Shown: positions 9,308 to 42,193 of the stretch, piece after piece | How the letters are laid out: the number at the start of each line of letters is the position of its first letter | How positions within the stretch are numbered: position 1 is the first letter of the stretch | Source of the DNA: Botryllus schlosseri | Taxonomy: Eukaryota | Reading direction: 5' to 3' | Length of the DNA stretch: 64,000 nucleotides | NCBI GenBank assembly: GCA_051294905.1 | Contig: CM119371.1 | Coordinates: forward strand, 26,414,001 to 26,478,000 | Notes under the pieces: generated by a model | Seen by the model: the letters and a program-made list of their open reading frames with translations, nothing else | Told to the model about the DNA's origin: nothing | The model's database searches: none | Position numbers and translations under genes: made by a program

Positions 9308-12300
9308 ATGGGTAAACTGATAATTCTAATTTTGTGGGTTGGTGCTTGTGTCGCAGTCGAGCCGGACATAGTAGAACAAGAGAAATGCACACCGTGAGTA
9401 TTGCCCCTGCTAATTCAACGGTCGAATATATGTAGTTTCAATATGATATTACTTCATCGACGAGTTGTGATAATAATCTGCCCATACCTCAAGTCGTCAC
9501 ATTTACCGCCGACACATGAATGAAAATTAACAAGATGTATCAATGGTGAGGATAGTTTTTGGTGGTTGAAATTGCGTGCTGCGGCATTAGAGCTGCAAGC
9601 CTGCGTCACTAAGCATATAGCTTCCTCTTTCGCCTTTGTGTTTAGCATCAAACAAAAAAGCGGAGTTACCCATTGTTTGATAGGTCAACAAAAAGATATT
9701 ATGATAACCCTTTCACATTACGATCGCCGATTGTTTTGCTATTCTGAGCGATTACAAACAATTTGTTCAACGTGGAAGTGTTCACCCTGATGTTTGTAGA
9801 ACGGCGCATAGGTCATTGAATGCGCCGAGCAACAATGCACTGGTTAGCAATCTACTGCCGAAATCGTAAAAACAACCTATTGGGTATACGATGACATCAA
9901 TTATTGTTTTCATTTGACGTTACTGTCTATTTCCCAAAACAAATTTCCAAACGGAAACCACCCAAATGACCCAATGCCTATATCTCAAAAAAACTTCACA
10001 AATGTAGCAGCGATTATGCACGTTGCGTATCGAAGAAATGTAGTGTGCAAAATGTAGATATAACGAATGTTGTACATGTATTATTGCCATGTGCTCCAAA
10101 CATGACACGTTTGCTGTATCGCATTTACCATGCAAAACCAAGCAATATTTTCAGGAACATAGGCAGCCAAATAGAGCAACAACTGCACCTGCATTTCATT
10201 TGCATATTCGAATCATTTAGTTTCCACGTGATAAATGACATGTCGTTGGTTATTAATTCATGTCGTTTATGGGCTTGACCATCCACCAATGACCAGTGGG
10301 ATATTGCTTTCGGTGACGTGTAAACAGGGTAGCAAAATTTAATTTGATGATGTCCACAGGGGGATCATATGCGTATGTATACAATAGATGTATATTGCAT
10401 AGCATACCCATGTGATATTCAGTGAAATTTGAAACCATCGGCAATTTCCATGGTGCACATGATTGACAATGGAATGTTGTAATAATCTACGTATCAATAT
10501 GTCGTCAGACTGTTGTAATCCGTATACCTATCAATAAGTGTAATGATGTTGTAATCCATGCAGCGATGTAGTGTAGATAACTAAAGCGAGGATGGCGGTC
10601 ATGTGGGACTTCTGCTATGCCTGTAACATATCAACTGTAGTCACATATCATTATCGCCGCAGCGAATCTGACACACATGGTAATGTACAGTTCAATACAA
10701 CGTAGAAGCCGCAACTGCCATCACGGTGTTCTAAAATGTTCGAAGTAAAAGTCTTATCGGACACTTCATTTCTGTACAAACACACTGAAAAGGGGTTGTT
10801 CAGTTTGAACACATTTGAAGATTTTGGTTTAAATACCTAATAAAGAGACAGAAAGTCACTTTGCGAAAAACAAAAAGCCCAGTATGACTATAAGTCCGAA
10901 ACACTATGTCAATGAATAATCGTGTAACATCAAGCCCAACGCTAAATTTCCGACACCATATATTGCGTTTACTTGACAATAATCGCTACTTTACAGCCGA
11001 GACAGAAGAGACTCTATATACCCGGAATGCATGCAGGGAAGCGACCTAACTTTAGGGTGTGATTATTCGAATTACACCAAAATTCCTGATCCCGATCATA
11101 TATATCAAGTAAAGTCCTGTCGAAATACAATAAAACTTCTCGTCAACGACAGTTGTCTGAGCGACCTCACCGAAGGTAAATTGCAGTATGCTAAGTCGTG
11201 AAAATTCAAATCAAGTTTTGTTTATTTGTAATTTAGAGAGATATTTACTATCTTTCTTAACCATGAACCATACTAAATGGGTCCGACTATTTTTCATCTT
11301 GACGTAACGTCATCAAGATTGTATACACTACTGCGAATAAACTACTATTATATTTTATCACGATCCTGACCAACAGGATAAAAACGCAATGGAATCTAAA
11401 AATCATACAATAGTGAGAATGAGTCTTATAATTTACATCATTTTTTTCTCAAAAAGTTCAATTGCAAAATATTGTCGATTTTTTTTAAACATATCCGTCC
11501 GGCTGGTAATACCCTTCCATTCATGAAATGAAATCCGAATTTACTCGTTTACAGATCAACTAATAAAGTACGAAAACATAGAAACTTTGGATTGCGGCAG
11601 AAACAAAATTCAAATTCTCAGGAGAGGGGTATTTCGCAACAATGCCAATCTCAGAAAAATTGACATGAGTCGGAATTACATCAAGGAGATCGAGAGAGGG
11701 ACTTTCGCAGGTAGATATCGCGTCAATTTCTTCTAGAAATCACTCTAGTTGAAGTTGGACAAATCGATCAAGACAACTGCTGGGAAATTTCATTCTACCT
11801 GATCAAGAGAAGCCAATGTTACCATGAAGTATCGATTGATATGTTACCGTCGCGCTGAAGCGTTGCGTCACGAATCCCGCTTTCCTTCGAAAGGGATATA
11901 TTGTTTTGAGTGTTAGATCATAGACGTCAAATTGTGTATGTATTACGTGTATTGCGTTTTCTGACGTGATCTAAATTACTCATGTTTGCTATATTCGCGC
12001 CGGGAACGAATGAATTCCATGTTACTTTTCAGGCTTGAGTAATCTCAAGGTCCTTCTCCTGAGCAGCAACTTATTGGAGGGGATCGAACAGTCAACGTTT
12101 GAAGAGCTGGAATCATTGCAAGAACTATCTGTACATAATAATTACATAAAAGTGCTGAAGAATGGAACTTTTAGTCATCTGCGTCAGTTAAAAGTGCTGG
12201 ATTTGACAGGTGGGAACGACGAAAGCAAAAAATAATGGGGTTTTATCAGAAGTGGTTAGTAACGAATTTCATCTGATTTATCGAAGTACTCAAGTTTTTC

Positions 12301-15141
12301 AGATTTCTCCCAAATCTACTTGAACTGTAGTTTGGAAAAATCTGGATCTGGATTTTGAAAATTGGCTCTGTTTTGAGTTCGCTTCAATAGCACCGAGAAG
12401 AACATAATTGCGGATATTGTACCAATTTGCAGTGTCAATGCGATTATTTCTTGACCTAATAAACGGACTGTTTTGCACCTAAATATCAAAATTTTGACAT
12501 TTTCTGACATTGAAGAACTAAATTTTGACAAAATTCTGTGCTTTCAAGTATTCAAATTAGGGATTGTTGCGCCTAAGAATAGCATTGTAGTACATTTTTG
12601 GTTGAAACTGTCCGTCATTACGAAGTAGGTTGGCAAGAATAGAGAAAAAACGTTCAACAGCAGCAATTGTTTGCTGACAGCATGGACGCTCAGTGTATTC
12701 TGCCGGAGTGCTAGTAATAGACCTGTTGCTTCATACCAACAATGTTTTCTACGTCGACCTTTTTAGTACTCAATCCAAAATGACTTATTGGGCAATATCG
12801 AAAAATAATCGCCCTATATAATCATTACTTATCATTGCTCACATTGATTTAATTGCAAAGATAGTTTGCGGACAAGAATCAATCATTTTTATGACAGTAA
12901 TTGTCGCTACAAATCTAGTCGAATGAGCACCTGTCATGGTTAGTAAATACATTTTCAGAAATTGTACCATATTCGCAGTATCGTTAGTCACTTTGTTTTG
13001 GCCGTGAAGATGCACCTAGCAATGTCAATGGTAGCCATCTCCGCGTGACTGTTAAAGGTCTGCAACCCCGCGAACAGTACTTTCTGGAATACTTTTCAAA
13101 TCTTTCTTTTTTTCTCTATTTGAAGAAATTTTGATATCCCTTGGAAATTTTACTTCAGCTTGTAATTTAGTATAAATTTACGGCATTACTTCTACCAAGA
13201 GTGGCTTTTCCGCTCTCCCATTGATCACCTCTGGCTGTCGAGTATCTTTTTTCTCGAATGACATTTGAACCATCTCGATCTGCAGGAAATGAAATTAGTG
13301 TCATAGAAGACGGAGCATTTGAGGGCCTGGATGAACTGCAAACGCTGTACCTGGACGGCAATAAATTAACCGTTTTGAAAACATCCATATTCGCATCTCT
13401 CCGCAATCTTACAGTTTTAACGCTGTCTCATAACAACCTGACTCGCTTTCCAACTTTCCAAACGGTAAGTGTAATCTTACTCGGCAGTATACATGAACGG
13501 CGATATTTGTATATTCTACAGAGTTATTTTCCGCATTTACATACTTTGGACATCAGTCGCAACCACATCCCGTCTATTAAAGATTTGGATTTATCAACAA
13601 TCCCGAGGCTTCAGTAAGTCCTTTTGTGATTTTGTGTCATTGTAAATTATTAAAAAATATGTAAACGTCCTTGATATAGATATAATCAATTATTGAGCTG
13701 AGTATATCCGTTTTTGGTTTAGAAACTTGATCTTGAAGAACAACGAATTGCTCTCATTGCCAGAAGGTGCATTTAGCATGAACGAAGAATTAAGGATGGT
13801 CGATCTTTCAGGCAACAACTTGACGGAAATAGAAAGACATATGTTTACGAATTCCTGGTAATGTGGAACATTCTATTCGATAAAACCGTTTAACTCCGAA
13901 TGGATTGCTTGTGTCCAATCTCAATTAATAATTAAATAATCGCGTCATACATTCGGTGCTTTTTTGTTGCAGCCATTTGGAGGAATTGAATTTGAGCGAT
14001 AATCGCCTGACCGTCTTTCATCTTGATTGGTACTCATCAGTCATTCGAAACGGACATCCCAGTGACGATGATATCAACAGAAACAAATGGGACTGTACAT
14101 GTGATCTCTATCATCTCCACGTAAGGATGCCCTAGTACCGATTTTTAATAACGGGAGCCGCGTTAACTTAACGAGATTGGGACTAACCGATGCCGATCTA
14201 GCTAGCTAATACCTGGCTGTGTATGAGGTATATCACACATTCTAACATATTGATTCAAACATATTCGTCTGGATATTACGGTGACCACGGTTAAAGAAAA
14301 TTTTAGAGCACATTCTGCCCTATAGATATGAGTTCATTGTAGTCATCGTTTAAATTCAATTATAAGTAGAAATTACGTCGTTAATTTGTACTCAAGTACA
14401 GGAAGGCTATAAGGAGTGATATACAAGTAATTACAAATGTTAATATGCAAGGCCTGCTATTGCATAAAAAAATCAAGACTGTTAAGTATAGAAGTTGAAT
14501 CAGTGTAAATCATAACCACTGGAGTAACTAAAGTAATCATTATGACGACTTTGGCATCATATTTTTACGGCAGCAAATTGTAGGGGTTAAGAGCGTTTTT
14601 TGCAAACGATCATTAGATATTTTCGGTGGAATCAAACGAATGTCACCTTTATATTGTTTACATGCTCATAAATAGCTGAATTTCGCAGAAAATGCTTCGA
14701 CACAAGAAGGCGAGGAGGCAAATGTTCCATCCCGAATGCTACACCGGACTGGATGCCGAAGGACACCTAACTAAATGTAGACATTCTCAACCACACCTTG
14801 CCACGGCATATCACTGCAAAACGAAAACGACCACAAAAAGCTACGTTAGACATGTCAACAAAGCGGCATACGACAGATCCGTTGTGAGGAAGCAAATGGA
14901 ACTAACCACCATATCACCACGAACCACGATCTTACCATCAACGGAGGCAGTGACAAAGAACGCATCTACAATTGTAATGCTAGTCACCTTCATCACAGCA
15001 GGGATTCTGGCAACAATTTTGACAATGATTATGGCAGCTGTTTGCGTTAGGAGACGGTATAGCAAGAAGCTCGAGAAACAGAGAAGTGTAGAAACAGGAC
15101 GTCACGACTTCATTCACATAGCGGATCCAACCCCGGCGTGA
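9308..15141 (+). CDS. LRR single-pass transmembrane receptor-like protein, paralog A (9 coding exons, 534 aa)
   Basis: Exons 9308-9393, 10997-11175, 11555-11710, 12033-12209, 13286-13464, 13522-13613, 13723-13857, 13973-14120 and 14689-15141. All introns are GT-AG with consistent phases, giving a 1605-nt ORF. Signal peptide MGKLIILILWVGACVA; LxxLxLxxN repeats such as LKVLLLSSNLL and LQTLYLDGNKL; LRRCT-like NKWDCTC; Thr-rich stalk; TM IVMLVTFITAGILATILTMIMAAVCV followed by RRR. Confidence 0.92.
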
Positions 15142-17148
15142 TTTACCTGCTTTTTAAGGGTTGTCACACAAATAGCAGAGTGGGTCCAGTAGTCGACGTT
15201 GGGACTCGCATAGATTTAATTTTCTACTCAATCAAAAGTAAAAATAGAGATTACTTCAAGCGGAAGTAGAAAATTAAGATTTTAAAACTACTAACATGAT
15301 TAGTTTCAAGACGTAGTTGGTCGATATGTCGCAAAACTTTACTAGTCGATCGAAGATAAATACGTTGGAGCTTTCCGAGTGAATCTTCAATACTAACGCA
15401 GAATGACTATGACACCGCAATTTACGAAAGATAAATATTCAGTTACTGTCATACATGAGCCACTGCTTCATTTCGGTATGATAAAATCACGAAAAACATG
15501 ATGAAAGTATATGGTTGAACTCTAGTGAAATTTAAAATCCTTAAGTCTAAAAATTACTAAGCTTTGAATAAAAATCATTTAAGTATAGAAGTGGAAGTAG
15601 ACAAACATAAAAAGCGGGTTCAGTACCGCAAGTAGGCGAAGGCTAATTTAGTACTCAGAAAAAATACAATCACTTCGTTAGCAACTGCCATTGATATTCA
15701 GGAATTATCACATTCCGTGTAGTATGTCCATCTTGCCTCATTCTCTTACATTTTACGTATAAGACTGCTCTATCTTTCGATACGCGAATTAGGCTCACAA
15801 GGCGCTTTGCCTGTCCGTATCCCCGCGACCTGTATCACTTGTTATACGTATTGTTATACGGCCGGAGCCAGATCGGAGCCGGACCAGAGAATTGGCAAAC
15901 CGGATCGGAGCCGGACCAGAGAATTTGTCGATCCGCTTCGCACTACCGCGCAGTGACGAATACCGATAATATGACTATGCAATAAGGTTTGTCCAGAAAA
16001 AAACACATCTCCCTGTGTTGATATAGAAATCAATATATTTTTTTACTATGACGTCTATCTCGGTTTTGATAATACACCCAGTAAAAATATGTATCATCCA
16101 ATAGAGCGCTTGAAACACTACTTGGACAAGTTCGCCAAAATGTAATTTGCCCGTTCATGAATAGCCAATATGGAAATGATATATTTTGAGTTTTATGTAA
16201 GAATCACTTATTATGAGAAATATATACCAACATATACAGCCTGTACATAAACTACCTTTATATATTAAGTCAGTGAATTAGTATAGCTATCCTCAACCAA
16301 TACGATGCATGTAGGTAGAGTTGTTGTCGTTGTTGCTTATTTATGAGCTGTGGGTCATTTTTACCACAGTCTATAATGGCGAAGTATGCGTGTAGTGTTA
16401 GACTAAAATCTTGGTTCTGGAGAAAAAAAATCATTTATTATCTCCAAATAACTACCCACATCTTCCAGAGAGCATTTCGCACTTTCATCGTGATAAATTT
16501 TCCGGTATCAGTTTACGCTTTCGTCAGTAGCCCATATTTCATGTTTTTACGTTGCTCATTCGAGCGGTTATCTTGAGAGTCCATTTTTGTACAGCAATAA
16601 ACAGCGTCACTGTCAGCGTCTAGTCACTGTCACCAAACTTTTACGAAGCGTGAATAAACGGAGTGATATCTTGCATCTATTCTCATCTAATTATTTCAAG
16701 CGGAAATACTTAACCATACATACCGGTGAATCTTTCTCACTTTTGTCTCAGTAATTCACCTGTGTCAGTTCTACTTTAGGTCTCTAATAACTAGTTATCA
16801 TGTATTTGCTTGTAATATATCGGTGTTCTTCATAGATTCAGCGCATTATAGTCGGTGTTTGTACTAAATGTAACGATGAATTTCCTTAAAACATAAACAG
16901 CTACGCAGGGCCGTAACTGTTGCACCCCAAATCCCCCAAATGGGGGGGGGGGGGCGAGCTCGAAGGGGGCACAAAATTTTTCGGTGGATTAGCATAAATT
17001 ACAGAGTATCTTTTTCAAATCTTTGCAACTTTTTCAAAATTTTTTCGCGATTTCAAGTTACCAAATATCATGGTTCTTGGGTACTCTTCCCACAAGGAAA
17101 CATACGCAAGCTTTATAAAAATGGGCATATCGCCGTAGGTCATTACCA

Positions 17149-17559
17149 AGGGTTAGCATATTGGGGAAATCTGGAAAGAGGACACTTTTTCAGAATTGTC
17201 AGACTTGCTAAACCGGAGAAGAATCTCAAAAAATGGTAAATTTCTCCCACATTGTGGTCGGTTACCTTAAAAAAGGTCATCTCTCTCGCTCAGAGCCCAA
17301 AATACAGTTCTTCCCTTCACATTGTCAGGTGGTTGACTAAACAGAAAGATCAACTTCCCACTCAGTTCCCGAAATACCCGCCGGAGCGTCACTTCGGTGA
17401 TGATTTACGGCATTTCAGTCGTATTTTGCTATAAATATGACCAAAATTCTCAAAAAAGAGGACATAATCTCAAACAAGAGGGCGTCCTCCGAGGATACTT
17501 TCAAAAAAGTCAAAAAAAGATGACAAATCCTCTTAAAAGAGGACGGTATGGTAACCCTA
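17149..17559. mobile_element. Second copy of the 1492-1921 MITE family, nested in a copy of the 4328 family starting at ~16906
   Basis: Ends AGGGTTAGCATA / TATGGTAACCCTA, near-perfect TSD CATTACCA / CATTACCG, and internal similarity to 1492-1921. Confidence 0.75.
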
Positions 17560-19849
17560 CATTACCGAGCCACGACGCACCAAGACCAGGGACATCTAGT
17601 CTAGATATCCCTGACCAAGACATATGAAGTTTTAGGCCATGTGACACGCAACACCAGTGAGTGTGCCACAACGATCGGCAGCGAGAAAAGGACTGCCCAC
17701 AACACCCAGGATATAACCAACTATGCCTCACGAGGCCTCAAATGCCAATGCCACAATTTTCTGTCACGAATCACCAACGGGTCATGTTTTATCATCATGA
17801 ACTAGAAATGGGACGTAATAGCTGGTCTTCTACCGCATGGTAGCTTTTACAAGTGATGTGATAGTGAGATTTGCTAATAAATCAGGTTTTTGTAGTAGTT
17901 TTAGGGTGAACTTCAAGTTCTTGAATCTAAAAAAAGATATGGCGTTTGAATATATCGTCGAATACTTGAAATCCCAAAATACCGTCGCGGGGGGCACTAA
18001 ATGTTCTCGTGGGCCGCATGTGGCCCGCGGGCCGCGTGTTTGAGACCTCTGGTTTAATTTATCATCATGTTCCGCGCAACGCTTTCTTTGCTAAGCTATT
18101 TTGAATACTTCGTTTTCATTTCACACTTCTCATATTTATGTTGGCAAGGATTTCGCGTTTAAAACAAATTTGTGTTAAATGTTTACGTGTCTATAATGTA
18201 ACATTTTAACTTATACCTTCTTCTGTTAGGCTGAGCGACATTGAACAAAATTATGCTTTCTTAGTTAGTTGTAAGAGCCTCTATTTCAACTTTGGTATTG
18301 TATTTTAATAGTATTTAAAACGGCTGTCATTGCAAGAACCTTGAATTCAAATGAAAATACCATCTTCATAAAATTTACGACATGCAAGAACAATTAAGCT
18401 ACCGCAGAACCTAATTTATTTGTGTTCTAGACAATAATGACCAAAGCTAGCATAATTGAATATTCGGTGAAGAAAAAACTTGACCTGATTGAAAAAAATG
18501 CTGGTTGCCTTTTTTGAGTTCAGCGCAAAAAATTGACTCAAAAATAGTTATAACATATTTGACCTTTGAAAAATAATTTTCTAACGCACAACAGTGTTAT
18601 TATTATCGGAGTGTTTCGGACCGGATAACGTTCATTTCTAGAATCGGGTCTAGGAGTCGAACAGGAGTCGGAATAGAGCTTTAAAAACAGGATCGGAGTA
18701 GGACCAGAGAATTTTTCGATCCGCTCCGCACTACCGGCAATCCGCAACATGACGCTTTCGACAGGGCTGCGCAAATTTTCAACTTTGTCGCTAGTTGCGA
18801 GCGAGGTCGAAGCAGTTACTGATCGTAGTCTCTATGTCACCACTCCAGTTTGTCCCGTCACTGCGTGTTCCAGCTTCTATAATGGTTTCTTCGTTAAAGT
18901 TATAATGATTTGAGACCGTTTTAAAACGTAATGTATATTAACTGCAAGAACGCATTCTACTGTAAGAAGTACCGGTACTTGGTAATCAACAAAAACAAAC
19001 CAGTATCGCTTCTGAAAGTCACAGACATTGCATGTCTATGGAAATATTATGCCTTGCTTGGTTTACTTTACGCATTGGTTGGAAACTGGGAAAAGCACTT
19101 ACTACTTTTAATCGAGGTGTGTCATGAGATTTCAGAGATGTAGGCCTATATTTCAGGCACAGGTACATATCGGAGCGCGGCGTCTGAAAATATCACTGTC
19201 GACTTAATTGGCAGTATCAGTGTAATTCATGATGCAAGATTTCGTCTATTCTCCTCTTTACCATACTTTGGAACGAAATAGTGGGGATTATGAGATTCAG
19301 TAGAAATGGAATATGCATAATTATAGAGGAGGGTGAAGCTCCCGAGAGCTAAAATAAACCAAACCCATGGATCAATTTCAATGCTAATACCTACGGGCGA
19401 ATCGAAGAATGAAATGGAAAGACTCCCAGAATTTATCTTTGAACATTGTTATGACCTTTTCCATTTACAATTAAATTATATTGCATTTGAGAGTTGTTCT
19501 CTACCTTGTGGAGAAATTCATGTACAATTGATTGACAGCTGATGCAGTCATTGAGGCCATGAGAGACAGAAAGTTACACCTAGAACTCTAGAAATCTGAA
19601 TCAGCAACCGGAAATAACGCCCGTCCCGCGCAGATTCTGCGCTTTCAGCATTGAAATATGCCATTGGTTCGTAATGGAAAACTGTGTACATATCAGACGT
19701 CACCTAATTCATTGGCAAAAATCCGTGCCCCTCGAAATATTCATATTTACGTTATCCATAGAGACGTGCGATGTGTATCCACTTCGAAAATTCGGACAGA
19801 ACACGCAAGCGATGTAGTCGCCGCATGTGCGCATTGCCGAGTACTCATT

Positions 19850-23852: not shown

Positions 23853-26800
23853 ATGTATTATAAATCTATTGCAGTAGTTTTATTTTTCCTGGTTTTGGCC
23901 AGTCACTGCGTAGCTGAAATTGATGACATGGATCTACATAAATGTACATCGTAAGTATTCCGGCACGGCTGTAAGTCTGTATGTTATACTTAGGATCGGC
24001 CTTGCTAACGCCCTTATTTAAACATCGGCAATTATGTCAATAAAAACCTGTTGCCACATTATATCCATAGCATTATTTTGCCTTCAGCCAACACACTCGC
24101 GTCACGGAAAATCCCATTTTGTGGAGTCGTTGCGCCTGCGACATTTATTTACGTAACAAACGCAATTTTTCTTCAGTTGGGTATACTGTTTCAACAAATA
24201 TATTCTTATTTCTGTCGGCGGTTCGAGGTCCTAACGTTGCCAATTTATTGTTGGGGAATACCTGTCATGTACGTAGTGGCGAGATAGCGCAGTGGTATAA
24301 TCCGCGGCTGCAACACCAATGGATGCGGGTTCGAGTCCGACCGAGGTCGACTTCCGAATTCCGATATCTAAGTGTTGGAGGTTTACCTAGGCTCCTCCTC
24401 GCCACCTCATCCGCGTCAGCGGTGTCTTACAAAAGCCTAGAGGTGGGCCGTGCTATAAGTCGGCAGCTACGGAAAATAACAAGAATATCGGCCTGGTGTA
24501 AATGACCATAGTAGTCGACAAACACCATGAATACCCCAAAACAAACAAACAAACCTGTCATGTACGGTACATCACAGCAAACCCGCATGCTGGAGAAATA
24601 GTGCCTTGTATAGCTTGCAGTTATTATGCTTACACATAATAAAGTGACGCTTTCGGAGCACTAAACGCAGAAATTTCACTATCATAGGAAAGGAAAATGG
24701 GCTATTGCCTTCATTGCTATGACAGTATGACACGTATGCTATTTTCATCATTGGGTCACCCCGTATTACATCATATGTATTTTGCTATCGCGTTGCATTG
24801 GGAGCGCGCATGATTTTTCATTTCGTCTACGACAGTGTTTCCTACACTTTTGTACCCGCTCGTGAGTTAAGCTGTCGCCGAATGTTTCTCGTACCCCTAT
24901 CCAGGATCGAAATAGCACTCTGTCAAGTCTGGTATTTGGCAGCCATAGGGTCCTCAACACAACCAATGTGGTTTTCAGGGAAGGAGACATTTCAGCGTCT
25001 GGAGATAATAAAATCGGAGGTTTGGCCGATGTGCCGAGATTGTAGGATCCAAATGTTAATCACCGACGCCGGTGCACCGAAACGTCATTGGTCTGGAGGC
25101 GGAAGTTACGTTCATCACCGAAATGTCGGATTGTAATAGTCCCGCATCAGCAGTTTCACACCTCTACACTAAAGCACCGTAACGGACTCAAGGCACCATT
25201 CTGTCACAATTGCGAAAAAGTCTCCTAATATTCTTTTGTCTGAAGGAATGCCATAGCAAAACTTAAAGCAAGAATGCTACAGAAAAGGAATCGCACCAGG
25301 CTCGAAGAAAACTTTCGAGTTGATAAAACCCGACCAATAATGTAAATTTGTAATGTAAATTTGCAAAATCATATAGATATTTGAATAGCCAAAAATTGTA
25401 CACTGCGTCTCGTAACCCCCACTTTGGTGCTTCATACCCCCAATGGCTCCGTGGACCCCTGTTTAAGAACCTATGGTCTACGACACGTGATATATTGCAC
25501 AAATACATACCTATAATAACCATACGTCCTACGTACTCTAGTTAAATCGCTTCTTTTATTAACAGACGCGATAAAAGAGCTTCTATATACCCCGAATGCA
25601 TGCAGGGTAGTAATTTGGTGTTATGGTGTGATTACTCAAATTACACCAGAATACCTGACCCCGACCGCATCTATCAATCAAAGTCATGCCGTAATTCTGT
25701 TGCTCTGTTCGTGAACGATAGCTGTATTGCTGACCTCACACAAGGTAAGTTGCTGTGCTATCAGTATATGATACGCTCCATTAAATTATATGACCGCATA
25801 GTGAACAAAAAGCACTTCACGACGGATATTTCCCACTTGCGGTCTTGGCGTATCGAATTGCATACGATGACGTAACTTATACATGAGTGAATAAGTCAAG
25901 CACAAAATAGAAGTGGTTACGAGAGAGATGATTGGAACAACTATTTTGAATTAATAATGTAAGTGAAAGAGGAATAGGGGGTTGGTTCATCATCAAAGGA
26001 TACATTACACCAATGACTTTTGTTGCCATACACACCTTGGATCTTCACGTTTCCCGCATTTAGGCTTGGTAACCATTTATAAATTTATTTGAAGTATAGC
26101 TATTCACATATGTTTTCTTCAATACTAGGGATGATTTTGATGTTCGATATTCTTCTTAGACACCCGAAAATGCATAATTTTAGGCTACTGTCTCAATTAA
26201 ACACATTGCAACCTCCACCCGAAAACTCGGAAATTAAATTTTTGCCTAGTTATTGAAACTTATTCAATATTTATTATTCAATCTAAATACGATTATGAAT
26301 CGATTATGCATCGCCAATCGATAAGCGCTTAAAATCCTGAAATCCATTTTCTAGTTCGTATCAAATTACATCTTGTATCTTGTAGAAACAGCTCTGATGC
26401 TAAGCTACTCCACACACCCAGCCGATATCCCCAAGACATTCACCACAATCATAGAAATGGCTGTCTCCTATATGCAAAGATATGATGTTGCACAACGCGA
26501 AGAATATAACTTTTTTTTTCAGATCAACTGGAGAAGTTCGAGAACATCGAATCTTTAGAGTTCGGGAAAAATAGAATTCGAATTCTGAGGAGAGAGATAT
26601 TTACCAGTAATAGGAAACTTGAGAGGATAGACGTAAGCGAAAATTATCTCAGGCGTATAGAAAAGGGAGCATTCTCAGGTGATTATGTTTCGGTTCAAAA
26701 CGAAAAATGTCTGTGAAAATGAGTTTGCGGTGCGTACATTTGGATATGCGGTTAGCATATGCATATATTGCTATCAAAACAGCATTTTCCTTCGACTGAA

Positions 26801-29800
26801 TTGCGAAAATACATTTGGCGATTTGATATATGTGTCGGATACCCAGATCGGTTTGCGAATGCATGTTTGATACTGAATATGCGAACGGCTGTAATCACGT
26901 TATTACGTTGAATTCATATATTTCTACAAAGCCTGTACGACAGTGGTTCCCAACCTTATTGTCTTCATTCACCACTTCAGATTTATTCCGAGCCTTCATT
27001 CCCCACTATACCCAAAACTATCGTTGTATTTCCTTAACTTCTGTCATTACGGAGCAGCTATGTCCTTGTTTGAGTACACAAGACACACAAACACACCAGT
27101 ACGCAAGACAATCGCCTATAACTGCAATATGAAACGTATTGTGAACCGATACCGGTAAGCGGTAAGCCTCAAAATTTAGCGAAAGCGTTACATCACGTCA
27201 TACTGGTCGTGCCGAATGCGTTTGTGACGCCATCATGGGTTATCCATCGTAAAAATGAGTTTTTCTGAACAACACTCAATATAATTTTCGATACATACAT
27301 TCCAGAGTAGTTAACTGGTAACGGTAATCGCACACGTGTCTCCGCAAATATGTAGACTATCCTGTATCTAATATTTAACAAATGCGTCTATTCCCCACCA
27401 GAAACCAATGAATTCCCACCACTGGGGAATTCCCCACCGGTTGGAAACCAGTGCTAAAGGATTAACGATTCTCAACGCAATTGCCACAAGTCTTCGTATC
27501 GATCAATTCGAGTTCTATTCATTGATGAACAATGGACACAGGGACTCGCGGTCCCATTGTTTGTTAAATTTTTACCGGGGTATTTTGATATTCGAATGCA
27601 AATAAGGTATTTTCCGTTAATCTGAACCCCTACCATATATGTTCAGTAGTGTAATACTTCATAACCAGCATTTGCATTGACAAAATGGTTATTATGACTA
27701 CATTTTATGGAAGGCGTATGGTAAAGGCAGGAGAAACAGCTTCCAAATGAGGAAATAAAGGTTCCATTACAATATATACACACTCATAGCATTTCGACTA
27801 ATCTCACAACACGATTCTGTCTCCTCGTGATACATACCTATTCAGAGGAGTTCGTTACAAACTTCCACGTGCACAGCACGCGGTGTATGACTTCATTGTG
27901 TCAAAATGCGGAATCATTTTTTTTTACAGGACTGCGCCAGCTCGAACAGTTACACCTCAGCTGTAACTTAATACATGACGTCGACGAAACGACATTCGAA
28001 GACGTTGAATCACTTCAAGAACTTTCCCTGCATAATAACCTGATAGAAGTATTGCGAAATGGCACATTTGGTCGGCTGCGGAAGCTTAAAGTGCTAAATT
28101 TATCAGGTAAACTGGTGTGTGTAATTGATTGTACCATTACAATTTCAACGGATAATATAGTGCTGTAGTATCAAGTAATAATCACGTGTCAGTTTAGTCC
28201 ACGATTACACCTTTGATTCCAACAGCATAAATGTTTGATACAATGGTTGCAACCCGTGGGAAGGTTCGTGGTCGCGTGTATTTTAACTCAAACTTTTATA
28301 ATAAGGCAAGCCGCGAATGCGAGCGGAAGCCCGTTACGTGTTCATCAATGTCTATGTCTATCCTAGGTATCGACACTGTTTCTAGGTAATGCATGGTATC
28401 TGAATATTGTGGTTCAAAGTGTACAAACTGTAACCACTCTACTAAGTGTTGCAAGCAGGCAAGACCGTCCTAAGTATTCCGAAACGATAATCTAGTTACT
28501 ACAGTGTGATAGAATACTTTCACTAGTCCAGGTTGTGACAGCTCACAAATAGCTTTCTAGAGCTATATTTCGGTTTAACCTCGGGAAATTATTTTTCATC
28601 TGCTAGTGCCCCCAGGAACTTCAGTAAATGCATACGAAAATCTAACTGTGTTTTTATTACGATATTCAGGAAATAATATATCCGTCATAGAGAAAGAGGC
28701 ATTTATTGGATTGGACCAATTAGAGATACTGCACTTGGATGGAAATCGTATAGCCGAATTTGAACCATCCACCTTCGCATCACTCACAAATTTACAAGTT
28801 CTGTCCTTATCACATAATCATCTTATTACTTTTCCACCTCTGCAAGAAGTAAGCGGCAGTTTTCCCTAATTTACCAAATTACATATATGTACTTTTATCC
28901 ATTCTGCAGGTGCCTTATCGCCATATGCATACTGTGGATTTAGGACACAACTATATCAGGTCGCTACAGCTATCAGACTTAATTAACATTCCAAGGATTC
29001 AGTAAGTAATTTTGTGATGATCTGATATAGGCTATAGCTCGCACAAATATCAAGTAAATTTAAGTACGATCCACCCATGTGTATACATTGTAGTGTAGTT
29101 GAATATCAGGTAGCATACATTCATTTATCTGTTCTATTCGAATGCATTGTCTTCAGGAATTTGATACTACGTCACAACAATTTGTCCTCCCTACAAGACG
29201 ATGCGCTTTTTAAGGGGAATAAAGAACTACGGACGGTGGATCTATCAGGAAACAATTTGACGGATATGGCAGCACGCTTGTTTACTAATTCCTGGTAATA
29301 TAAATCAATTTGGTGTCCTATCAATTGTTGAATAAACCTTTGTTATTAGCATGAAATGTCAATATCTTAGCACTTAGCACTTAGAGATTCAGTCTCGACC
29401 TTGCACGCCACGTAGAGTGGTCGATGGTCAATGGTCATAGACGTATGCGTTATTATTATAAAGAGTCATCGACAACAATGCTCCACAATATAGCTCTGTA
29501 ATCATAATAATCACAAATGAAATTAATTCTATTACCATATATGTACAAATGAGCACATCCATTTATCTCGTGTCTATGCTCTCTACTACGCAGATGACAT
29601 TGAAGACAGATGATGCGATATAAACATCAATCGGCATACTCCAAATTTACGCGATGACTTTTATTTACAGTCTTGTGGAGAAATTGAATATCAGCGATAA
29701 TCGTTTGAAAATCTTCCATGCGGATTGGTACTTGACGGCAATCAGCAACGGAGGACCCTCTGGCAATGACATAAGTGGGAACAAGTGGAAATGCGATTGC

Positions 29801-32800
29801 AACGTTGAACTTATGAACGTAAGTGGTAGTGCCGTTTCTTTCATTAAGATTGTCTGCAGCGGCTTATATTGAATAACTTATAAGGGGATCTGGGCTAAGT
29901 CGAGTCGCTGAGTGATTCTATTACGAATCCAGTATTACAATTCCAGTCAAGAAGAGTATTCATTCGATGCTCACTCATTATAACAGTGTGGGGACCATAA
30001 CAGTATGCGTGCCATAGAACGTTCAAAGACGTATTTTATATGAGTGAAACAAAATGTAGTTCCACGATATTAGAGGTAATTCGCTATATTTTCGAGCTTA
30101 TCTATCTTCTTGCGCATTCTTTCAATGATGTGGTCGATTACCACAGAACAGAAATGTCGTCTGCATTGGTTCTATACCAATACCGAGGAAATCATTACCG
30201 AGAATGGACATTGCCGGGATTGTCATTACCGAGAATGAACATTACCGAGAATTGACACTACCGAAAATGAACACCACCGAGAAAGGACACCACCGAGAAT
30301 GAACATTACCGAAAATGAACAATGCCGACAATCTAGCTTAATAAGACGGATGTTGCCGATAAATTTATACGTGAGAATCGACGCCGACTATGGCAACGTC
30401 GTGATGCACATACAAACGATATGTAGCCTACATATGCATAACATGCCTGTATTGTATACTTTGTATACGTTGATGACAAAATTGCGACATTTCTGTCCAG
30501 TGACATATGCACCATGCGGTGTCTATTATGCGCGCATGGTATGCATTTGCAAATGTACAGATCACGACGTCATGGTATTAGATATTTCCTGGTTTATATT
30601 TCACGACATCGTCCGTCTCAATATGTTAGGTTCTCGGCACTGTCCATACTCGGTAATATACGTTGTCGGTGATGTCCATTCTCGGTAACGTCCATTATCG
30701 GTGGTGCCCGTTCTCGGTAATGTCCATTCTCGGTGGTGTTCGTTCTTGGTAATGTCCATTTTTGGTGGTGTTCGTCCTCGGCAATGTTCAATCTCGGTAA
30801 TAGCCATTCTCGGTGGTATTCGATCTTGATAATGTCCATTTTCGGTGGTGTCCATTCTCGGTAATGTTCATTCTCGATGGTATCCATACTCGATAATGGC
30901 ATTCTCGGTATTGTTCATTCTCGGTGGTGTTCGTTTTCGGTAATGTCCAATCTCAGTGGCGTTCATTCTTGGTATTGTCCATTTTCGGTGGTGTCCATTC
31001 TCGGTAATGTTCATTCTCGATGGTGTCCATTCTCGATAATGGCATTCTCGGTAATGTTCATTCTCGGTGGTGTTCGTTTTCGGTGATGTCCAATCTCAGT
31101 GGTATTCGCTCTTGATAATGTCCATTTTCGGCGATATCCATTCTCGGTAATGTTCATTCTCGATGGTGTCCATTCTCGATAATGGCATTGTCGGTAATGT
31201 TCATTCTCGGTGGTGTTCGTTTTCGGTAATGCCTAATCTCAGTGGTGTTCGTTCTTGGTAATGCCCATTTTCGGTGGTGCCCATTCTCGGTAATGGCATT
31301 CTCGGTAATGGTTTACTCAGTATCGACCGGACACCGTCTGCATTACTGTGGTTAGCTTTTTTCTACACTTGGATTATTACAATTATTACTCGATTCAGAT
31401 TCGACTACTCGAATCGTCTTGCCGACTTATTAAGAGTGGTGGCAGACTACTTATGATAAGTGCTCGACCAATTCATCAATTTTGGAAGTTGGCGATATCT
31501 GATGTGGGTGATGATCGCCAGCTACACGAGGTTTCTCATGGTTCTGTGAGAGTGTGATGACGGAATGTATGTCAACGGCGAAAGCTATATATAGCTCAAA
31601 CCAAGCTTATATTGACAGATTCAGTACATGACGCATGTACCGGATGCTGTGCCTAATTGCTTGATTATAAAGCCCCGCAATCTTATACTGACGATTCTAT
31701 AGAATATTACATTACCTTGACGCGAATTCAGAAAAAGGATGAGCGGTTTATCACTATACGTTGACCAGGGCTATTTACAATTAGAACGTTATCTCACACC
31801 AATCTCCAGTGGGGTGTCATTTCCAAACTTCCTTGTACACTTAAATCCTTTAAATCGATGTACTATTGCCCTCATATCTCCCAGCAACGAATATATCTGG
31901 TATTTCCAGCTAGCGACGAATATATCTGGTATTTCAAGCTAGTTGGTAAAAAACAGTAAGGTTACTGCTAATTTCCATAATATTTGTTTTTGTTGCCAAC
32001 GACACTCCATGTACATTTGAATTGCTTCGCAGCATATAAGCGCTTCGGTCCATACTCTCAAGGAAAATTACTCCTATACTCATATACCCAATATTTGGTG
32101 CAATTTAAGCCACATCCCCCCACTTCTCCAACGGGCCGCAATTATCATCATTCGATATACTATTGCCTTCAGGACCGAACCAGAATTTTGCCAGCCCACC
32201 CCCAAAAAATCTTCATGCGTGTTCCCCCAAATAGGGTGATTAACCAAACATCTGGGGGTGATGCTCCCGCACCCGACTTTCACTACGGGCCTTTCCCCAA
32301 TTACTCGATTTGGAGTTTTTTCATTACAGAAGACATAGCATGTGTTTGTTGTCTGGTGGCACCATGCGCGAAAAAATGTTACATTCATGACTGAATTTCG
32401 TCACTAATATTAGTGGCTGCATATATTACGATCAATTTTTAATTCTCACTCAGCTCACGTGATTAGATTTGCCAGTATAGAGTTGACTGGGTAAACCTAA
32501 ATTTAGGGCACAAAATTACTAAGTATACCTCTTCAGGGAACTTTTTGTCAACACACTTCGCGTAGTAACATGTTGATTGAAATTGCATGTCTTGCTGCGT
32601 GGTGAGCGGTGACGCGTTAATAGCCGGCGATGACCGTACCGATAATGAAGGCAAGGCATGGACTGATAATAAATCGCACGAAATGCGAAAAAATTTTTCA
32701 AGTTGAATAAATCACCCACCGAATACTCCAAAATTTATGTCGTTCTTATGAAATAATTAATACAGTATAGTAATAATATAGTACTTGAATCGTGGAAATC

Positions 32801-33284
32801 AAGCACTCGAAATTGCACAGAGGGAACTTTTTTGAACTTGATTGATTGGTTGGTTGGTTGATCAATAAATCTTCTGTTGTAGCGTCACGTACAATCGTTG
32901 GACGATTGGAGACAGACCTTACAATTCGACTGTCCGATGAGCGACAACACAAAGTGCAATCACCCTCAATTCGTCAACCTATGCACCAAAAAACCAAATA
33001 GAACGATTGTCAAACGGCACCATTACGAGTCCGAATTCGACGCCGTCAATCTGAAGAAACAGATCGATCCTGACAGCACCACCATTACCTCCACAACAGT
33101 AGAGACGCCGGTCAGCGGTTACGTGGAAACAATATCGGTAGTCCTCGGAATTATATGTGCCATATTTCTAATTGTAGCAATAGTTACCGTTTATAAGCTT
33201 GCGAACGCAAGGAAGATGTCTTCGGAACATCCCAACCTCGAAAATGGGCGTCAAGATCATGTTGAAGGCCGTGAGTTAATATGA
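23853..33284 (+). CDS. LRR single-pass transmembrane receptor-like protein, paralog B (9 coding exons, 522 aa)
   Basis: Exons 23853-23950, 25566-25744, 26523-26678, 27930-28106, 28670-28848, 28910-29001, 29157-29294, 29671-29818 and 32883-33284. Phases match paralog A and internal exon lengths are nearly identical (179/156/177/179/92/138 vs 135/148), giving a 1569-nt ORF. Signal peptide MYYKSIAVVLFFLVLASHCVA; LRRCT-like NKWKCDC; TM ISVVLGIICAIFLIVAIVTVY. Confidence 0.92.
24274..24552 (+). mobile_element. tRNA-derived SINE in intron 1 of paralog B
   Basis: Pol III box A TAGCGCAGTGG (~24285) and box B GGTTCGAGTCC (24328), an (AAAC)n tail, and a 14-bp TSD ACCTGTCATGTACG (24260-24273, 24553-24566). 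Confidence 0.88.
30168..31335. mobile_element. Mutator-like non-autonomous element with inverted arrays of ~16-bp repeats (CATTCTCGGTAATGTC), in intron 8 of paralog B
   Basis: GGT...ACC termini with a perfect 9-bp TSD GTCTGCATT (30159-30167, 31336-31344). A short left array (30180-30325) is inverted relative to a long right array (30630-31310). Confidence 0.8.
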
Positions 33285-36200: not shown

Positions 36201-36572
36201 CGAACACGTTTTTTGTATGATTACATCAAGACACATGGCAATCCAGTAGGGTTCATATCCTACGCTGCAAAATCATTTTGATTTTACTTGTTGGCGAATA
36301 ATATCCTTAATTTGGGTGCTGAAATTATGAATGGCCTTGAGTTACTGACTTCATCTGACGGTGACCATTCGGCGAACTATATCAATAGGAGAACAATGAA
36401 GTGAATCATGCTCTTAAATTGTTGCAACCGCCATGCATGATTTTGATAATGTACTTGATCATATTTCTCAGTTCCCGACCGCAGTGCAACTTCTCTCGAA
36501 TTCAGTCCACGCGAACAAATAAACGGGGACGTATAGTGCGATTTTAGGCGGCAATTCTTTGTTTGCATACAT

Positions 36573-41020: not shown

Positions 41021-42193
41021 ATGCAATATATACTTACAACAGTAGTTTCATTTTTCCTGGCGTTGACTGGCCATTGCCCATCTGAAATTGATGAATGATC
41101 TACAATGTGAATCGTAAGTATTCAAACAAATAACATTCAGCCACTGTGATATTTTTATTTGCAGCATGTGACTGCGATATGTTTTGTGCATCATGGCCAT
41201 ACGTAGGCCTGCACATATTGTCTGTATACCGATGATCTACCTTACTAATGCCTCGACTGCAGTGGTTATTAACCTCTACTAACCTTCGGAACAATTACGC
41301 TAATCTGCAGGCCGAGTTACGGGAGCCGCAGAGTATTTATGGGCTGAATCGAAAATATAAATTTGAATTGTTGTTTTTGTGTGTCCTTGCAACTTTTTCT
41401 TTGCTTTGATTTTGTAACTTCTGCAACTGCCAAGGAAATTGAATAGTATATTCATCTTGAAATGAACCCGGCTGACACTCGTCACGGGTAATCATCAGCA
41501 ACGATAGTAGATAATGGCAAAGGACATTGTATCTCTATGGTGTTAATTCTCGGTAATGTCCATTCTCGGCGGTGTCAATTCTCGGTAATGTCCATTCTCG
41601 GTGGTGTCAATTCTCGATAATGTCCATTCTGTGGTGTCCATTCTCGGTAATAGCGTTCTCGGTAATGTCCGTTCGCGGTAATGGTTTTCTCGGTATTGGT
41701 ATAGAACCGTACATCAACGATCGTATCACAAAATCTGACTTCAGCGGCATGAAATTTCGAATATTCGGGGAAATGTGAAACATCATCAAACTGGAACGCG
41801 GCAATTCTACTTTCGTTTCACTTGACAACGAACATGTCCTATTTTAAGGTGCTGAATATATGGTAAGCTTACGGTAATAGTAAGACGATGGATGGATTGA
41901 TAGTTTCACTATCACTTATCAGTAAAAGGAAAGTAGGCCATTGCGTCGATTGCTGTAATACAGGCGCTTTTGGGAAACTCCGTATTACCTCATATTTATT
42001 TAAATATTGCTTTGCAGTGGAGAAATGCATGATTATGCATTCAATCAACGATAAGTGCTATATTGCACCCTGTGGTATGATCACTCCAACTTCACCAGAA
42101 TACCTAACCCAGACCAGATCTATTATTCAAAGTCATGCCTCAAAAATGTTGCACTGTTTATGACTGATAGTTGTATTGGCAACCTGACTCAAG
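41021..42193 (+). pseudogene. LRR-TM receptor paralog C pseudogene (remnants of exons 1-2 only)
   Basis: Exon 1 homolog at 41021-41113 reads MQYILTTVVSFFLALTGHCPSEIDE, with small deletions giving TGA at 41096-41098 and the GTAAGT donor retained. The 3' part of exon 2 at ~42070-42193 reads LWYDHSNFTRIPNPDQIYYSKSCLKNVALFMTDSCIGNLTQ, with a conserved Cys changed to Tyr, and has a GTGAGT donor. I saw no homologs of exons 3-9 downstream. Confidence 0.85.
41535..41710. repeat. Terminal fragment of the same 16-bp-array element, in intron 1 of pseudogene C
   Basis: Tandem CATTCTCGGTAATGTC units ending TCGGTATTGGTATAGAACC, the reverse complement of the 30168 terminus. Confidence 0.75.

What the first reader, a model, noticed from the sequence alone, without database searches (positions are those of the whole stretch)
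9308..42193. Tandem, birth-and-death cluster of TIR-less LRR membrane receptors (candidate invertebrate recognition-receptor family)
Seen: two intact genes with the same 9-coding-exon, phase-matched architecture and a third dead copy, all head-to-tail on the + strand. The proteins have a signal peptide, Cys N-cap, about 12 LRRs, LRRCT-like cap, Thr-rich stalk, TM and a ~30-aa tail. Known: this ectodomain layout is shared by TLR/CD180-, GPIb- and LRRC15-type proteins, but TLRs carry a TIR domain and none is present here. Inference: a lineage-specific, rapidly turning-over receptor family (immune, allorecognition or adhesion) that needs a partner to signal. I do not recognise it as a named gene.
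Basis: partly seen in the sequence, partly recalled or inferred. Interest (0 to 1): 0.8.

Follow-up and report, generated by a model that had tools for sequence, protein, structure and literature searches.

The report
Sea-squirt LRR membrane-receptor gene cluster
Two intact genes and one dead remnant of a sea-squirt-only family of leucine-rich-repeat cell-surface proteins lie in a row here; the cluster itself is fairly ordinary, but a shortened, intron-free relative of these genes is carried around the genome by a 40-kb jumping element.

Summary
Two genes on the + strand (9308-15141, 534 aa; 23853-33284, 522 aa) each have nine GT-AG coding exons with identical intron phases. Both encode signal peptide, a four-cysteine N-cap, 12 LRRs, a C-x-C...C...C cap, stalk, one TM helix and a tail of about 30 residues. 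The third copy is only a dead exon-1/exon-2 relic (41021-41113, 42073-42193).

No TIR or other domain lies in the window. The N-cap profile found 11 proteins among 1.84 billion. The named ones are Styela clava and Ciona intestinalis proteins with automatic names only, so this is an ascidian-restricted, undescribed family.

"Rapid turnover" is not supported. The nearest paralogue pairs have dS 0.66-0.73 and dN/dS 0.16-0.20, with no excess change at concave LRR positions. Sampled RNA reads showed no splice junctions, and the immune role is untested.

Unexpectedly, at least 28 dispersed intron-free copies of a truncated relative (26 with open frames of 346 aa or more, dN/dS 0.17) sit inside a 40-kb Merlin-type transposon. 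It has 8-bp duplications, GG termini and two IS1595-like transposase genes. It also carries gag, an RT-RNaseH-Tpt1 pol, envelope-like glycoproteins, an IAP and an E2.

The parts
9308..9393 (+). gene 1 exon 1: ATG, signal peptide, ends ...EQEKCT, phase 2
   Evidence: GTGAGT donor; colinear with intron-free paralogues L007 and L010
10997..11175 (+). gene 1 exon 2: four-Cys N-cap plus LRR1
   Evidence: AG/GT; most conserved part (81% identical to gene 2)
11555..11710 (+). gene 1 exon 3: LRR2-3
   Evidence: (LRR_8 34.2 bits)
12033..12209 (+). gene 1 exon 4: LRR4-5
   Evidence: (LRR_8 56.7 bits)
13286..13464 (+). gene 1 exon 5: LRR6-8
13522..13613 (+). gene 1 exon 6: LRR8-9 (the 57-nt intron 5 is open in frame)
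13723..13857 (+). gene 1 exon 7: LRR10-11
   Evidence: (LRR_8 36.2 bits)
13973..14120 (+). gene 1 exon 8: LRR12 and the first half of the C-cap (NKWDCTC)
23853..23950 (+). gene 2 exon 1: ATG, signal peptide, ends ...LHKCT, phase 2
   Evidence: GTAAGT donor; one of the two candidates from a scan of 15200-25500 for a signal-like first exon, and the only one ending in KCT with a GTAAGT donor
25566..25744 (+). gene 2 exon 2: N-cap plus LRR1
26523..26678 (+). gene 2 exon 3
27930..28106 (+). gene 2 exon 4
28670..28848 (+). gene 2 exon 5
28910..29001 (+). gene 2 exon 6
29157..29294 (+). gene 2 exon 7 (one codon longer than in gene 1)
29671..29818 (+). gene 2 exon 8
32883..33284 (+). gene 2 exon 9: C-cap half, stalk, TM (residues 468-498), tail, stop
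41021..41113 (+). relic exon 1 of a gene-2-type copy: ATG and GTAAGT donor kept, 5 nt shorter than gene 2, two in-frame stops
42073..42193 (+). relic exon 2, 3' 121 nt only (77.7% identical to gene 2, GTGAGT donor kept, second N-cap Cys changed to Tyr); the 5' 58 nt and the acceptor are lost

Best explanation
The region holds two old paralogues and one decayed fragment of an ascidian-restricted family of type-I membrane glycoproteins.

Shown:
- The ectodomain is a 12-repeat 'typical' LRR solenoid between a family-specific four-cysteine N-cap and a C-x-C...C...C C-cap.
- A short Thr/Ser-containing stalk, one TM helix and a tail of about 30 residues follow. The tail has no recognisable domain and is not conserved.
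- The genes belong to a head-to-tail array of six on one chromosome. The array grew partly by duplication of a two-gene block: gene 1 pairs with the copy at 26.30 Mb and gene 2 with the copy at 26.33 Mb, at similar dS.
- The proteins evolve under purifying selection.

Inferred:
- They most likely act as cell-surface binding proteins. They would hold an extracellular ligand on the LRR/N-cap surface and pass the signal on through another membrane protein, or simply mediate adhesion. Vertebrate tail-poor LRR proteins such as Nogo receptor, LRRTM, GPIb-V-IX and LRRC15 work this way.
- I put about 40% on a role at the host-parasite or immune interface, about 35% on adhesion or neural-type recognition, and the rest on something else.
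- The first figure rests on a mobile element that keeps a shortened, membrane-anchored copy of this family under selection.
For: - Gene models: nine GT-AG exons each, with the same phases.
- LRR_8 passes its cut-off on 8 of the 16 exon frames scanned. Signal and TM segments are seen by hydropathy.
- Four invariant cysteines in the N-cap/LRR1 block across 11 family sequences.
- The N-cap profile found 11 of 1,835,955,588 representative proteins at E <= 0.001. The six full-size or named ones are ascidian or unnamed.
- Styela proteins are 31-45% identical and the Ciona protein 31%.
- Solved-structure neighbours are all extracellular LRR proteins: IGFALS, TLR3, LGR4/5, LRIG1, LRRC15 by profile, and Nogo receptor, LRRTM2, LINGO-1, NGL, LGR5, TLR13 by fold.
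- Purifying selection: gene 1 vs L004 has dS 0.73, dN/dS 0.20 over 259 codons. Gene 2 vs L005 has dS 0.66, dN/dS 0.16 over 144 codons.
- No signalling domain.
- Mobile-element link.
Against: - No transcript support. In about 1.1-1.9 thousand million letters read from each of three bulk RNA-seq runs, exon bins had depth 0-0.4 and no splice joint was listed. The exon junctions of these two genes therefore rest on sequence logic and on intron-free paralogues.
- Pfam LRRNT and LRRCT models do not match the exon frames or the Styela/Ciona homologues.
- The AlphaFold model of a paralogue leaves the N-cap below pLDDT 50, so the cap folds are read from cysteine spacing only.
- Function has no direct evidence. 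The tail is 18% identical between the two genes, so a shared cytoplasmic partner motif is doubtful.
- The spliced proteins themselves could not be passed to the domain, structure or database tools.
Confidence: 0.7

Rival explanations
1. The genes are fast-evolving immune or allorecognition receptors in a birth-and-death array. Ligand-facing residues would be under diversifying selection and copies would be gained and lost quickly.
For: The array is tandem and contains a dead fragment. The family is lineage-specific. A related copy is kept by a parasitic element next to an apoptosis inhibitor.
Against: The nearest paralogue pairs are old (dS 0.66-0.73) and constrained (dN/dS 0.16-0.20). Concave x positions give 0.26 over 48 codons against 0.20 over 139 other LRR codons. 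Gene 1 and gene 2 are saturated at synonymous sites. Only partial sequences of three other members were available, so the test is weak.
Confidence: 0.15
2. The intron-containing array descends from the mobile element's gene (element to host domestication followed by intron gain) rather than the element having captured a host gene.
For: An AU test does not reject a tree in which the four host genes form one clade apart from the intron-free copies (p = 0.167). The direction is therefore not fixed by the tree alone.
Against: Eight introns at identical positions and phases are shared by gene 1 and gene 2. The first four positions are shared by L004, the first two by L005 and one by L002. The ML trees place the intron-free clade inside the host clade (94/93; 85/85). 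The Styela and Ciona homologues carry the full C-cap/stalk/TM architecture that the element copy lacks. The element's other cellular-type genes (IAP, E2) are also intron-free.
Confidence: 0.07
3. The two 'intact' genes are silent, recently disabled or never-expressed duplicates whose open frames survive by chance.
For: No splice joints and only trace reads on the exons in the sampled RNA.
Against: Both have complete 522-534-codon frames across nine exons with all 16 splice sites kept. They also show dN/dS 0.16-0.20 at dS about 0.7 against their closest paralogues. Frames left unselected for that long would not stay open; the neighbouring relic shows what decay looks like. Only 6-13% of each of three runs was read.
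Confidence: 0.08

Closest known systems
Styela clava XP_039252165 (725 aa, 'LRRC15-like'), XP_039253291 (636 aa, 'carboxypeptidase N subunit 2-like'), XP_039252470 (548 aa, 'chondroadherin-like'); Ciona intestinalis XP_002126734 / XP_026690733 / XP_078486963 (442-443 aa, 'vasorin', 'LRIG3', 'CD180 antigen')
   Same: Same N-cap signature (KCT...YP.CM...LWCD.SNYT.IPDPD...C.N...NDSC) and the same order of signal peptide, N-cap, LRRs, C-x-C cap, stalk, TM and tail. Only LRR families are found by Pfam and no TIR.
   Different: 31-45% identity. The tails are much longer in the two larger Styela proteins. The window genes form their own clade, so there is no one-to-one orthology. The names are automatic best-hit labels that disagree with each other, and no paper in the searched library mentions these accessions.
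Vertebrate tail-poor extracellular LRR membrane proteins: Nogo receptor, LRRTM2, LINGO-1, netrin-G ligands, LRRC15, GPIb/V/IX
   Same: Typical 24-residue LRR solenoid of about 9-15 repeats with cysteine caps, anchored by a TM helix or GPI, with little or no cytoplasmic domain. These are the best fold matches of the paralogue model and rank high among the profile matches. That these proteins work through partner proteins or adhesion is recalled knowledge.
   Different: Identity is only 18-25% in the fold alignments. None of the 60 best profile matches covers the N-cap; their best stretches start at profile position 72 or later. Pfam LRRNT and LRRCT are not matched.
Toll-like receptors and CD180/RP105
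   Same: LRR ectodomain plus one TM helix. TLR3, 7, 8, 9 and 13 ectodomains score well against the family profile.
   Different: No TIR domain in the window or on this chromosome. There are 12 LRRs, against about 19-25 in TLRs and about 22 in CD180 (recalled). CD180 is not among the 60 best solved-structure matches.
For the element that carries the intron-free relative: Merlin/IS1595 DNA transposons, the medaka piggyBac-herpesvirus fusion Teratorn, and the giant planarian gypsy element Burro
   Same: Merlin hallmarks are two DDE_Tnp_IS1595 genes, 8-bp target duplications and TIRs beginning 5'-GG (definition from PMC8101967, introduction passages). Like Teratorn, a cut-and-paste transposase is joined to virus-like genes (PMC10175614, abstract in the search listing only). 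Like Burro, a giant RT-bearing element carries BIR and ubiquitin-pathway genes (PMC6431247, passages of section 7).
   Different: It is 40 kb long and carries gag, an RT-RNaseH-Tpt1 pol without integrase, no LTRs, envelope-like glycoproteins and a host-family LRR gene. I found no description of such a combination, but those searches were few and word-based.

Membership tests
Extracellular 'typical' LRR type-I membrane proteins | Tandem LRRs matching Pfam LRR_8/LRR_1 | tested here: met
   LRR_8 is above its 27-bit cut-off on 8 of the 16 exon frames scanned. There are 12 repeats in a 24-residue register.
Extracellular 'typical' LRR type-I membrane proteins | Signal peptide and a single TM helix with the LRRs outside | tested here: met
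   Hydropathy gives an N-terminal segment and one segment at residues 476-505 (gene 1) or 468-498 (gene 2), followed by basic residues. No dedicated signal-peptide predictor was available.
Extracellular 'typical' LRR type-I membrane proteins | LRRNT cap (Pfam PF01462) | tested here: not met
   No PF01462 hit on the N-cap exons at E <= 1, on the intron-free paralogues or on the Styela/Ciona homologues. A different four-Cys pattern, C-x9-C-x19-C-x11-C, is invariant instead.
Extracellular 'typical' LRR type-I membrane proteins | LRRCT cap (Pfam PF01463) | tested here: inconclusive
   The cap is split between exons 8 and 9, and the spliced protein could not be submitted. The spliced translation shows C-x-C, 22 residues, C, 12 residues, C. 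The full-length Styela/Ciona homologues gave no PF01463 hit at E <= 0.01.
Toll-like receptors | Cytoplasmic TIR domain | tested here: not met
   The stop codon lies 29 and 24 residues after the TM segments of gene 1 and gene 2. No Pfam family was found on 79 other frames of the window. The TIR model hits only contig C13 (4 matches of 10 candidates).
CD180/RP105-type TIR-less TLR homologues | Long TLR4-like ectodomain (about 22 LRRs, recalled) with specific similarity to CD180 | tested here: not met
   There are 12 LRRs. CD180 is absent from the 60 best of 244 solved-structure matches. The label occurs only as one of three conflicting automatic names of the Ciona homologue.
Ascidian N-cap LRR-TM family (unnamed) | N-cap/LRR1 block with invariant C11, C21, C41, C53 and the IP.PD motif | tested here: met
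   Alignment of 11 sequences. The profile search recovers the Styela and Ciona proteins at E 1.6e-14 to 4.9e-9.
Merlin/IS1595 superfamily (element carrying the intron-free relative; outside the window) | DDE_Tnp_IS1595 transposase, 8-9-bp TSD, TIRs starting 5'-GG (PMC8101967, introduction passage) | tested here: met
   PF12762 at 3e-17 and 7.3e-10. 8-bp TSDs in 3 of the 3 copies whose two ends were read: CAGCATTT, GAAAAATT, GTATCTTT. Termini are GG...CC with 18 of 24 positions inverted-complementary, by my own count on the ends printed.
LTR retrotransposons / retroviruses (same element) | LTRs and an integrase next to RT-RNaseH | tested here: not met
   RT, RNaseH and a CCHC gag are present. 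There is no integrase family in the 1205-aa pol and no direct or inverted repeat longer than 14 nt between the first and last 1.5 kb.

The most novel reading that the evidence does not exclude
A 40-kb Merlin-type transposon has merged with a retrovirus-like gene set: gag, an integrase-less RT-RNaseH-Tpt1 pol and two envelope-like glycoproteins. It carries an arsenal copied from the host: an IAP, an E2 and a truncated, membrane-anchored copy of this LRR receptor family. It keeps that LRR gene under purifying selection because the protein mimics, blocks or exploits the host receptors encoded in this window. If so, the tandem array would be one side of a host-parasite conflict, and the element would be a transposon-retrovirus chimera of a kind not yet described in animals.
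Probability: 0.25. Interest if true: 0.8.

Novelty: new member of a known kind. Interest (0 to 1): 0.45.

Why it matters
On its own the cluster adds an undescribed, tunicate-only branch to the large class of extracellular LRR membrane proteins. It also corrects misleading automatic names given to its relatives (CD180, vasorin, LRRC15-like and others).

The added value is the link to a mobile element. A parasite that has copied part of a host surface receptor and conserves it (dN/dS 0.17 over dS up to 0.77) points to a function worth testing in animals that lack adaptive immunity and have few TLRs.

The carrier element joins a cut-and-paste transposase with reverse-transcription and envelope-like genes, so it bears on how transposons and viruses exchange modules.

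Tried and rejected
- Run search: no RNA holder listed for gene 1.
- Run X1 proved to be DNA-like. Its contigs run from exon into intron, so it says nothing about splicing.
- tRNA scan and Rfam scan of the whole window: nothing.
- Word-based protein search with the intron-free paralogue: one close hit, otherwise generic LRR proteins at 23-41% identity.
- AlphaFold model of the paralogue: LRR core good, N-cap unresolved, so no statement on the N-cap fold.
- AU test for nesting of the element gene inside the host array: not significant (p = 0.167).
- dN/dS between gene 1 and gene 2: unusable because synonymous sites are saturated.
- Element pol in IMG/VR viral contigs: no relative.
- The 766-aa element ORF: one unnamed relative only. 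The language-model look-alikes (viral spike/fusion proteins, 0.88-0.89) are below the tool's own trust line.
- Literature searches for the homologues' accessions and for a Merlin-plus-RT giant element found nothing pertinent.
- Earlier-scan look-ups near the finding and by sequence: nothing.
- Complex prediction was not used, because no specific partner is proposed.
Full report
**The observation**

The window is animal DNA of about 40% G+C and corresponds to contig C1:26414001-26478000 of a 495.5-Mb assembly.

On the + strand I assembled two genes by hand from open frames, splice signals and colinearity with relatives.
- Gene 1 has exons 9308-9393, 10997-11175, 11555-11710, 12033-12209, 13286-13464, 13522-13613, 13723-13857, 13973-14120 and 14689-15141 (534 aa).
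- Gene 2 has exons 23853-23950, 25566-25744, 26523-26678, 27930-28106, 28670-28848, 28910-29001, 29157-29294, 29671-29818 and 32883-33284 (522 aa).
- All 16 introns are GT-AG. Intron phases are 2,1,1,1,0,2,2,0 in both genes, and six of the seven internal exons have identical lengths.
- Pfam LRR_8 passes its cut-off on 8 of the 16 exon frames scanned.

Each protein has a signal-like N-terminus and a block with four invariant cysteines (C-x9-C-x19-C-x11-C). There follow 12 LRRs of 24 residues, a C-x-C...C...C cap split between exons 8 and 9, and a stalk. Then come one hydrophobic TM segment followed by basic residues and a tail of about 30 residues.

The third copy is a relic. Its exon 1 (41021-41113) keeps the ATG and donor but has lost 5 nt and has two in-frame stops. 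Of exon 2 only the last 121 nt (42073-42193) remain, 77.7% identical to gene 2. No later exons were found downstream.

**Support for the junctions**

An intron-free paralogue (L007, C1:24.29 Mb) aligns with residues 1-297 of gene 1 at 58.6% identity, and the matching coordinates mean no net insertion or deletion. The exon-by-exon tblastn pieces meet at the predicted borders. This is natural-cDNA-type evidence for six of the eight junction positions in the family.

Direct RNA evidence is lacking.
- Three bulk RNA-seq runs of the same species label were read to 6-13% each. They left the exon bins at depth 0-0.4 and gave no splice joint.
- The fourth run behaved like DNA.

**What else is in the window**

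None of 79 further frames matched any Pfam family at E <= 0.001. These were 78 of the 85 frames of at least 85 aa plus one frame of 80 aa; the other seven are LRR exons scanned.

The TIR model hit four places in the whole assembly, all on contig C13. No tRNA or Rfam family was found. There is thus no sign of a TIR, kinase or death-domain exon.

**Family and relatives**

The N-cap exon matched 42 places in the assembly at E <= 0.001.
- Six on the + strand of C1 between 26.27 and 26.46 Mb. These form the array, and the window holds its last three.
- Three diverged ones at 27.58-27.63 Mb.
- One L007-type locus, its copy on C7, and a fragment on C3 that gave two pieces.
- One weak hit.
- 28 dispersed intron-free copies.

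The array members read so far have the same split exons: L004 exons 1-5, L005 exons 1-3 and L002 exons 2-3.

A profile of the N-cap block (11 sequences, 59 positions) found only 11 proteins at E <= 0.001 among 1,835,955,588 representatives. The longer ones are three Styela clava proteins and one Ciona intestinalis cluster, plus unnamed assembly-derived proteins. The named ones carry mutually inconsistent automatic names: LRRC15-like, carboxypeptidase N subunit 2-like, chondroadherin-like, vasorin, LRIG3 and CD180 antigen. They share the architecture and show only LRR families in Pfam. No paper in the searched library cites their accessions.

In trees rooted on Ciona, the window genes and their genomic relatives form one clade (100/99 and 98/100) apart from the Styela proteins. 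There is therefore no one-to-one orthologue and no conserved named gene.

**Tempo and mode**

Gene 1 and gene 2 are 48% identical with synonymous sites saturated (pS 0.76). Identity is 81% in the N-cap, 56% in the LRRs, about 30% in the C-cap and stalk, and 18-19% in the TM segment and tail.

Each window gene has a closer partner upstream.
- Gene 1 with L004: dS 0.73, dN 0.147, dN/dS 0.20 over 259 codons.
- Gene 2 with L005: dS 0.66, dN/dS 0.16 over 144 codons.

The equal ages and the conserved order point to duplication of a two-gene block.

Concave x positions of the LRRs give 0.26 (48 codons) against 0.20 (139 codons) elsewhere, so there is no diversifying signal. The sample is small. The array is real birth-and-death evolution, but slow and constrained.

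**Closest known**

Profile search of solved structures gives IGFALS, TLR3, LGR4/5, LRIG1, LRRC15, LRRC32 and LRRTM. All matches start at profile position 72 or later, so none covers the N-cap.

A model of the paralogue has mean pLDDT 63.5. Its LRR core is at 70-92 and its N-cap is below 50. It resembles Nogo receptor, LRRTM2, LINGO-1, netrin-G ligands, LGR5 and TLR13.

The proteins therefore work like tail-poor extracellular LRR binders. They are not TLR or CD180 homologues in any specific sense.

**The unexpected part: a carrier element**

The 28 dispersed copies encode a shortened protein of 346 aa in most copies (342 aa in two). It has a signal peptide, the N-cap, nine to ten LRRs, no C-cap and a hydrophobic C-terminus. 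26 of the 28 have open frames of 346-350 codons.

Of 23 other dispersed loci, 18 align with L010 end to end and four more in two pieces. Copies on C4, C5, C14 and C8 are 95.6-96.8% identical over 22.5-23 kb.

Comparison of the C4 and C14 copies fixes the ends of the element.
- On C4 it spans 22817343-22857404, which is 40,062 bp.
- It starts GGTACTTGTG and ends CACTAGTTCC. By my count on the ends printed, these are imperfect inverted repeats at 18 of 24 positions.
- It has 8-bp target duplications in 3 of the 3 copies read at both ends.
- It has no LTR.

Its last 268 bp occur at 40 or more places. In eight copies compared by hand they lie 16.7-17.2 kb from the LRR gene on the same contig and strand.

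All recognised genes of the element are on one strand.
- An IS1595-like transposase.
- An ORF of about 837 aa with a signal-like start, an internal hydrophobic segment and a C-terminal TM segment.
- A 1165-aa Ser/Thr-rich membrane glycoprotein.
- The LRR gene.
- A second IS1595-like transposase.
- An IAP with three BIR domains and a RING.
- Five ORFs of about 150-170 aa. I noted them as paralogues from shared motifs but did not test this.
- A ubiquitin E2.
- A CCHC gag-like ORF.
- A 1205-aa pol with RT, RNaseH and a Tpt1/KptA domain but no integrase.

The termini, the duplications and the transposase domain fit the published definition of Merlin elements (PMC8101967, introduction passages).

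Five unnamed database proteins share the integrase-less RT-RNaseH architecture at 37-45% identity, and three of them also carry the Tpt1 domain. Gypsy-type pols with integrase reach only about 25%.

In four other copies, 51 of 52 ORFs checked are open over at least 90% of the reference length.

Among 20 full-length LRR copies, the 190 pairs give median dS 0.365 (maximum 0.77), dN 0.067 and dN/dS 0.17. Two 342-codon copies, two truncated copies and L007 were left out. The element therefore conserves this gene.

**Direction of transfer**

ML trees put the intron-free clade (L007, an unnamed database protein and the element copies) inside this species' host clade. It sits next to gene 1 or L004, with support 94/93 and 85/85. 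An AU test does not exclude host monophyly (p = 0.167).

The shared introns of the host genes, and the intron-free state of the element's other cellular-type genes, also point the same way. I read this as capture of a processed host transcript by the element. That is inference, not proof.

A giant planarian retroelement with BIR and ubiquitin-pathway domains (PMC6431247, passages of section 7) is a partial precedent. So is the piggyBac-herpesvirus fusion Teratorn (PMC10175614, abstract only).

**Verdict**

The finding is real and correctly described.
- Its TIR-less, lineage-specific reading is right.
- Its 'rapid turnover' reading is not supported.
- Its immune role is open.

The cluster is a new member of a known kind. 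The link to a conserved copy on a 40-kb Merlin-type, retrovirus-like cargo element is the part that deserves follow-up.

Noticed in passing
outside the window: G000:C4:22817343-22857404 (loci L045, L041, L031, L010, L032, L042); other copies on C1-C14, C16 and C125: A 40-kb transposon present in at least 40 copies. It has 8-bp target duplications, GG...CC imperfect inverted ends and two IS1595-like transposase genes. It also carries gag (CCHC), an RT-RNaseH-Tpt1 pol without integrase, two envelope-like membrane glycoproteins, an IAP, an E2 and a truncated LRR gene related to the window's genes. All genes are on one strand.
   Followed up: partly
L007 = G000:C1:24284097-24287285; a 98% identical copy at C7:28277986-28280544; a fragment at C3:7144524-7145727: A second, low-copy lineage of intron-free LRR genes (374 aa, with a TM helix and a short tail). 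It is preceded by an acidic Asp/Ser-rich ORF and followed by a separate repeat that recurs in whole or in part at more than 20 places. It may be another carrier element.
   Followed up: partly
window 24276-24476 (intron 1 of gene 2): A stretch of about 200 nt with very high RNA-seq depth in all three RNA runs. Template-switch-oligo-like letters lie before 24276 and poly(A) lies after 24476. It is probably a transcribed short interspersed repeat, but there is no tRNA or Rfam match.
   Followed up: partly
window about 17500-17560: A second short stretch with high RNA and contig depth and many loose ends. It is probably another abundant repeat.
   Followed up: no
window 30631-31310 (intron 8 of gene 2) and 41538-41683 (between the relic's two exons): The same 16-bp minisatellite (unit TTCTCGGTAATGTCCA, about 43 and about 9 copies) lies at both places. 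It gives long spurious open frames on both strands.
   Followed up: no
G000:C1:27579101, 27606952 and 27632548 (loci L047-L049): Three further, more diverged N-cap exons (41-51% identical to gene 1) lie on the + strand about 1.1 Mb downstream. This is a second small array of the same family.
   Followed up: partly
G000:C13:3075887-3093673 and C13:1766589: The TIR model finds only four places in the 495-Mb assembly. Three of them lie in tandem within 18 kb, and two of those three contain stop codons.
   Followed up: no
database proteins P0121-P0125: Integrase-less RT-RNaseH pol proteins recur in unnamed assemblies, and three of the five also carry a Tpt1 domain. One cluster has 215 members on contigs up to 1.7 Mb, so this pol type marks a wider, undescribed group of elements.
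   Followed up: no
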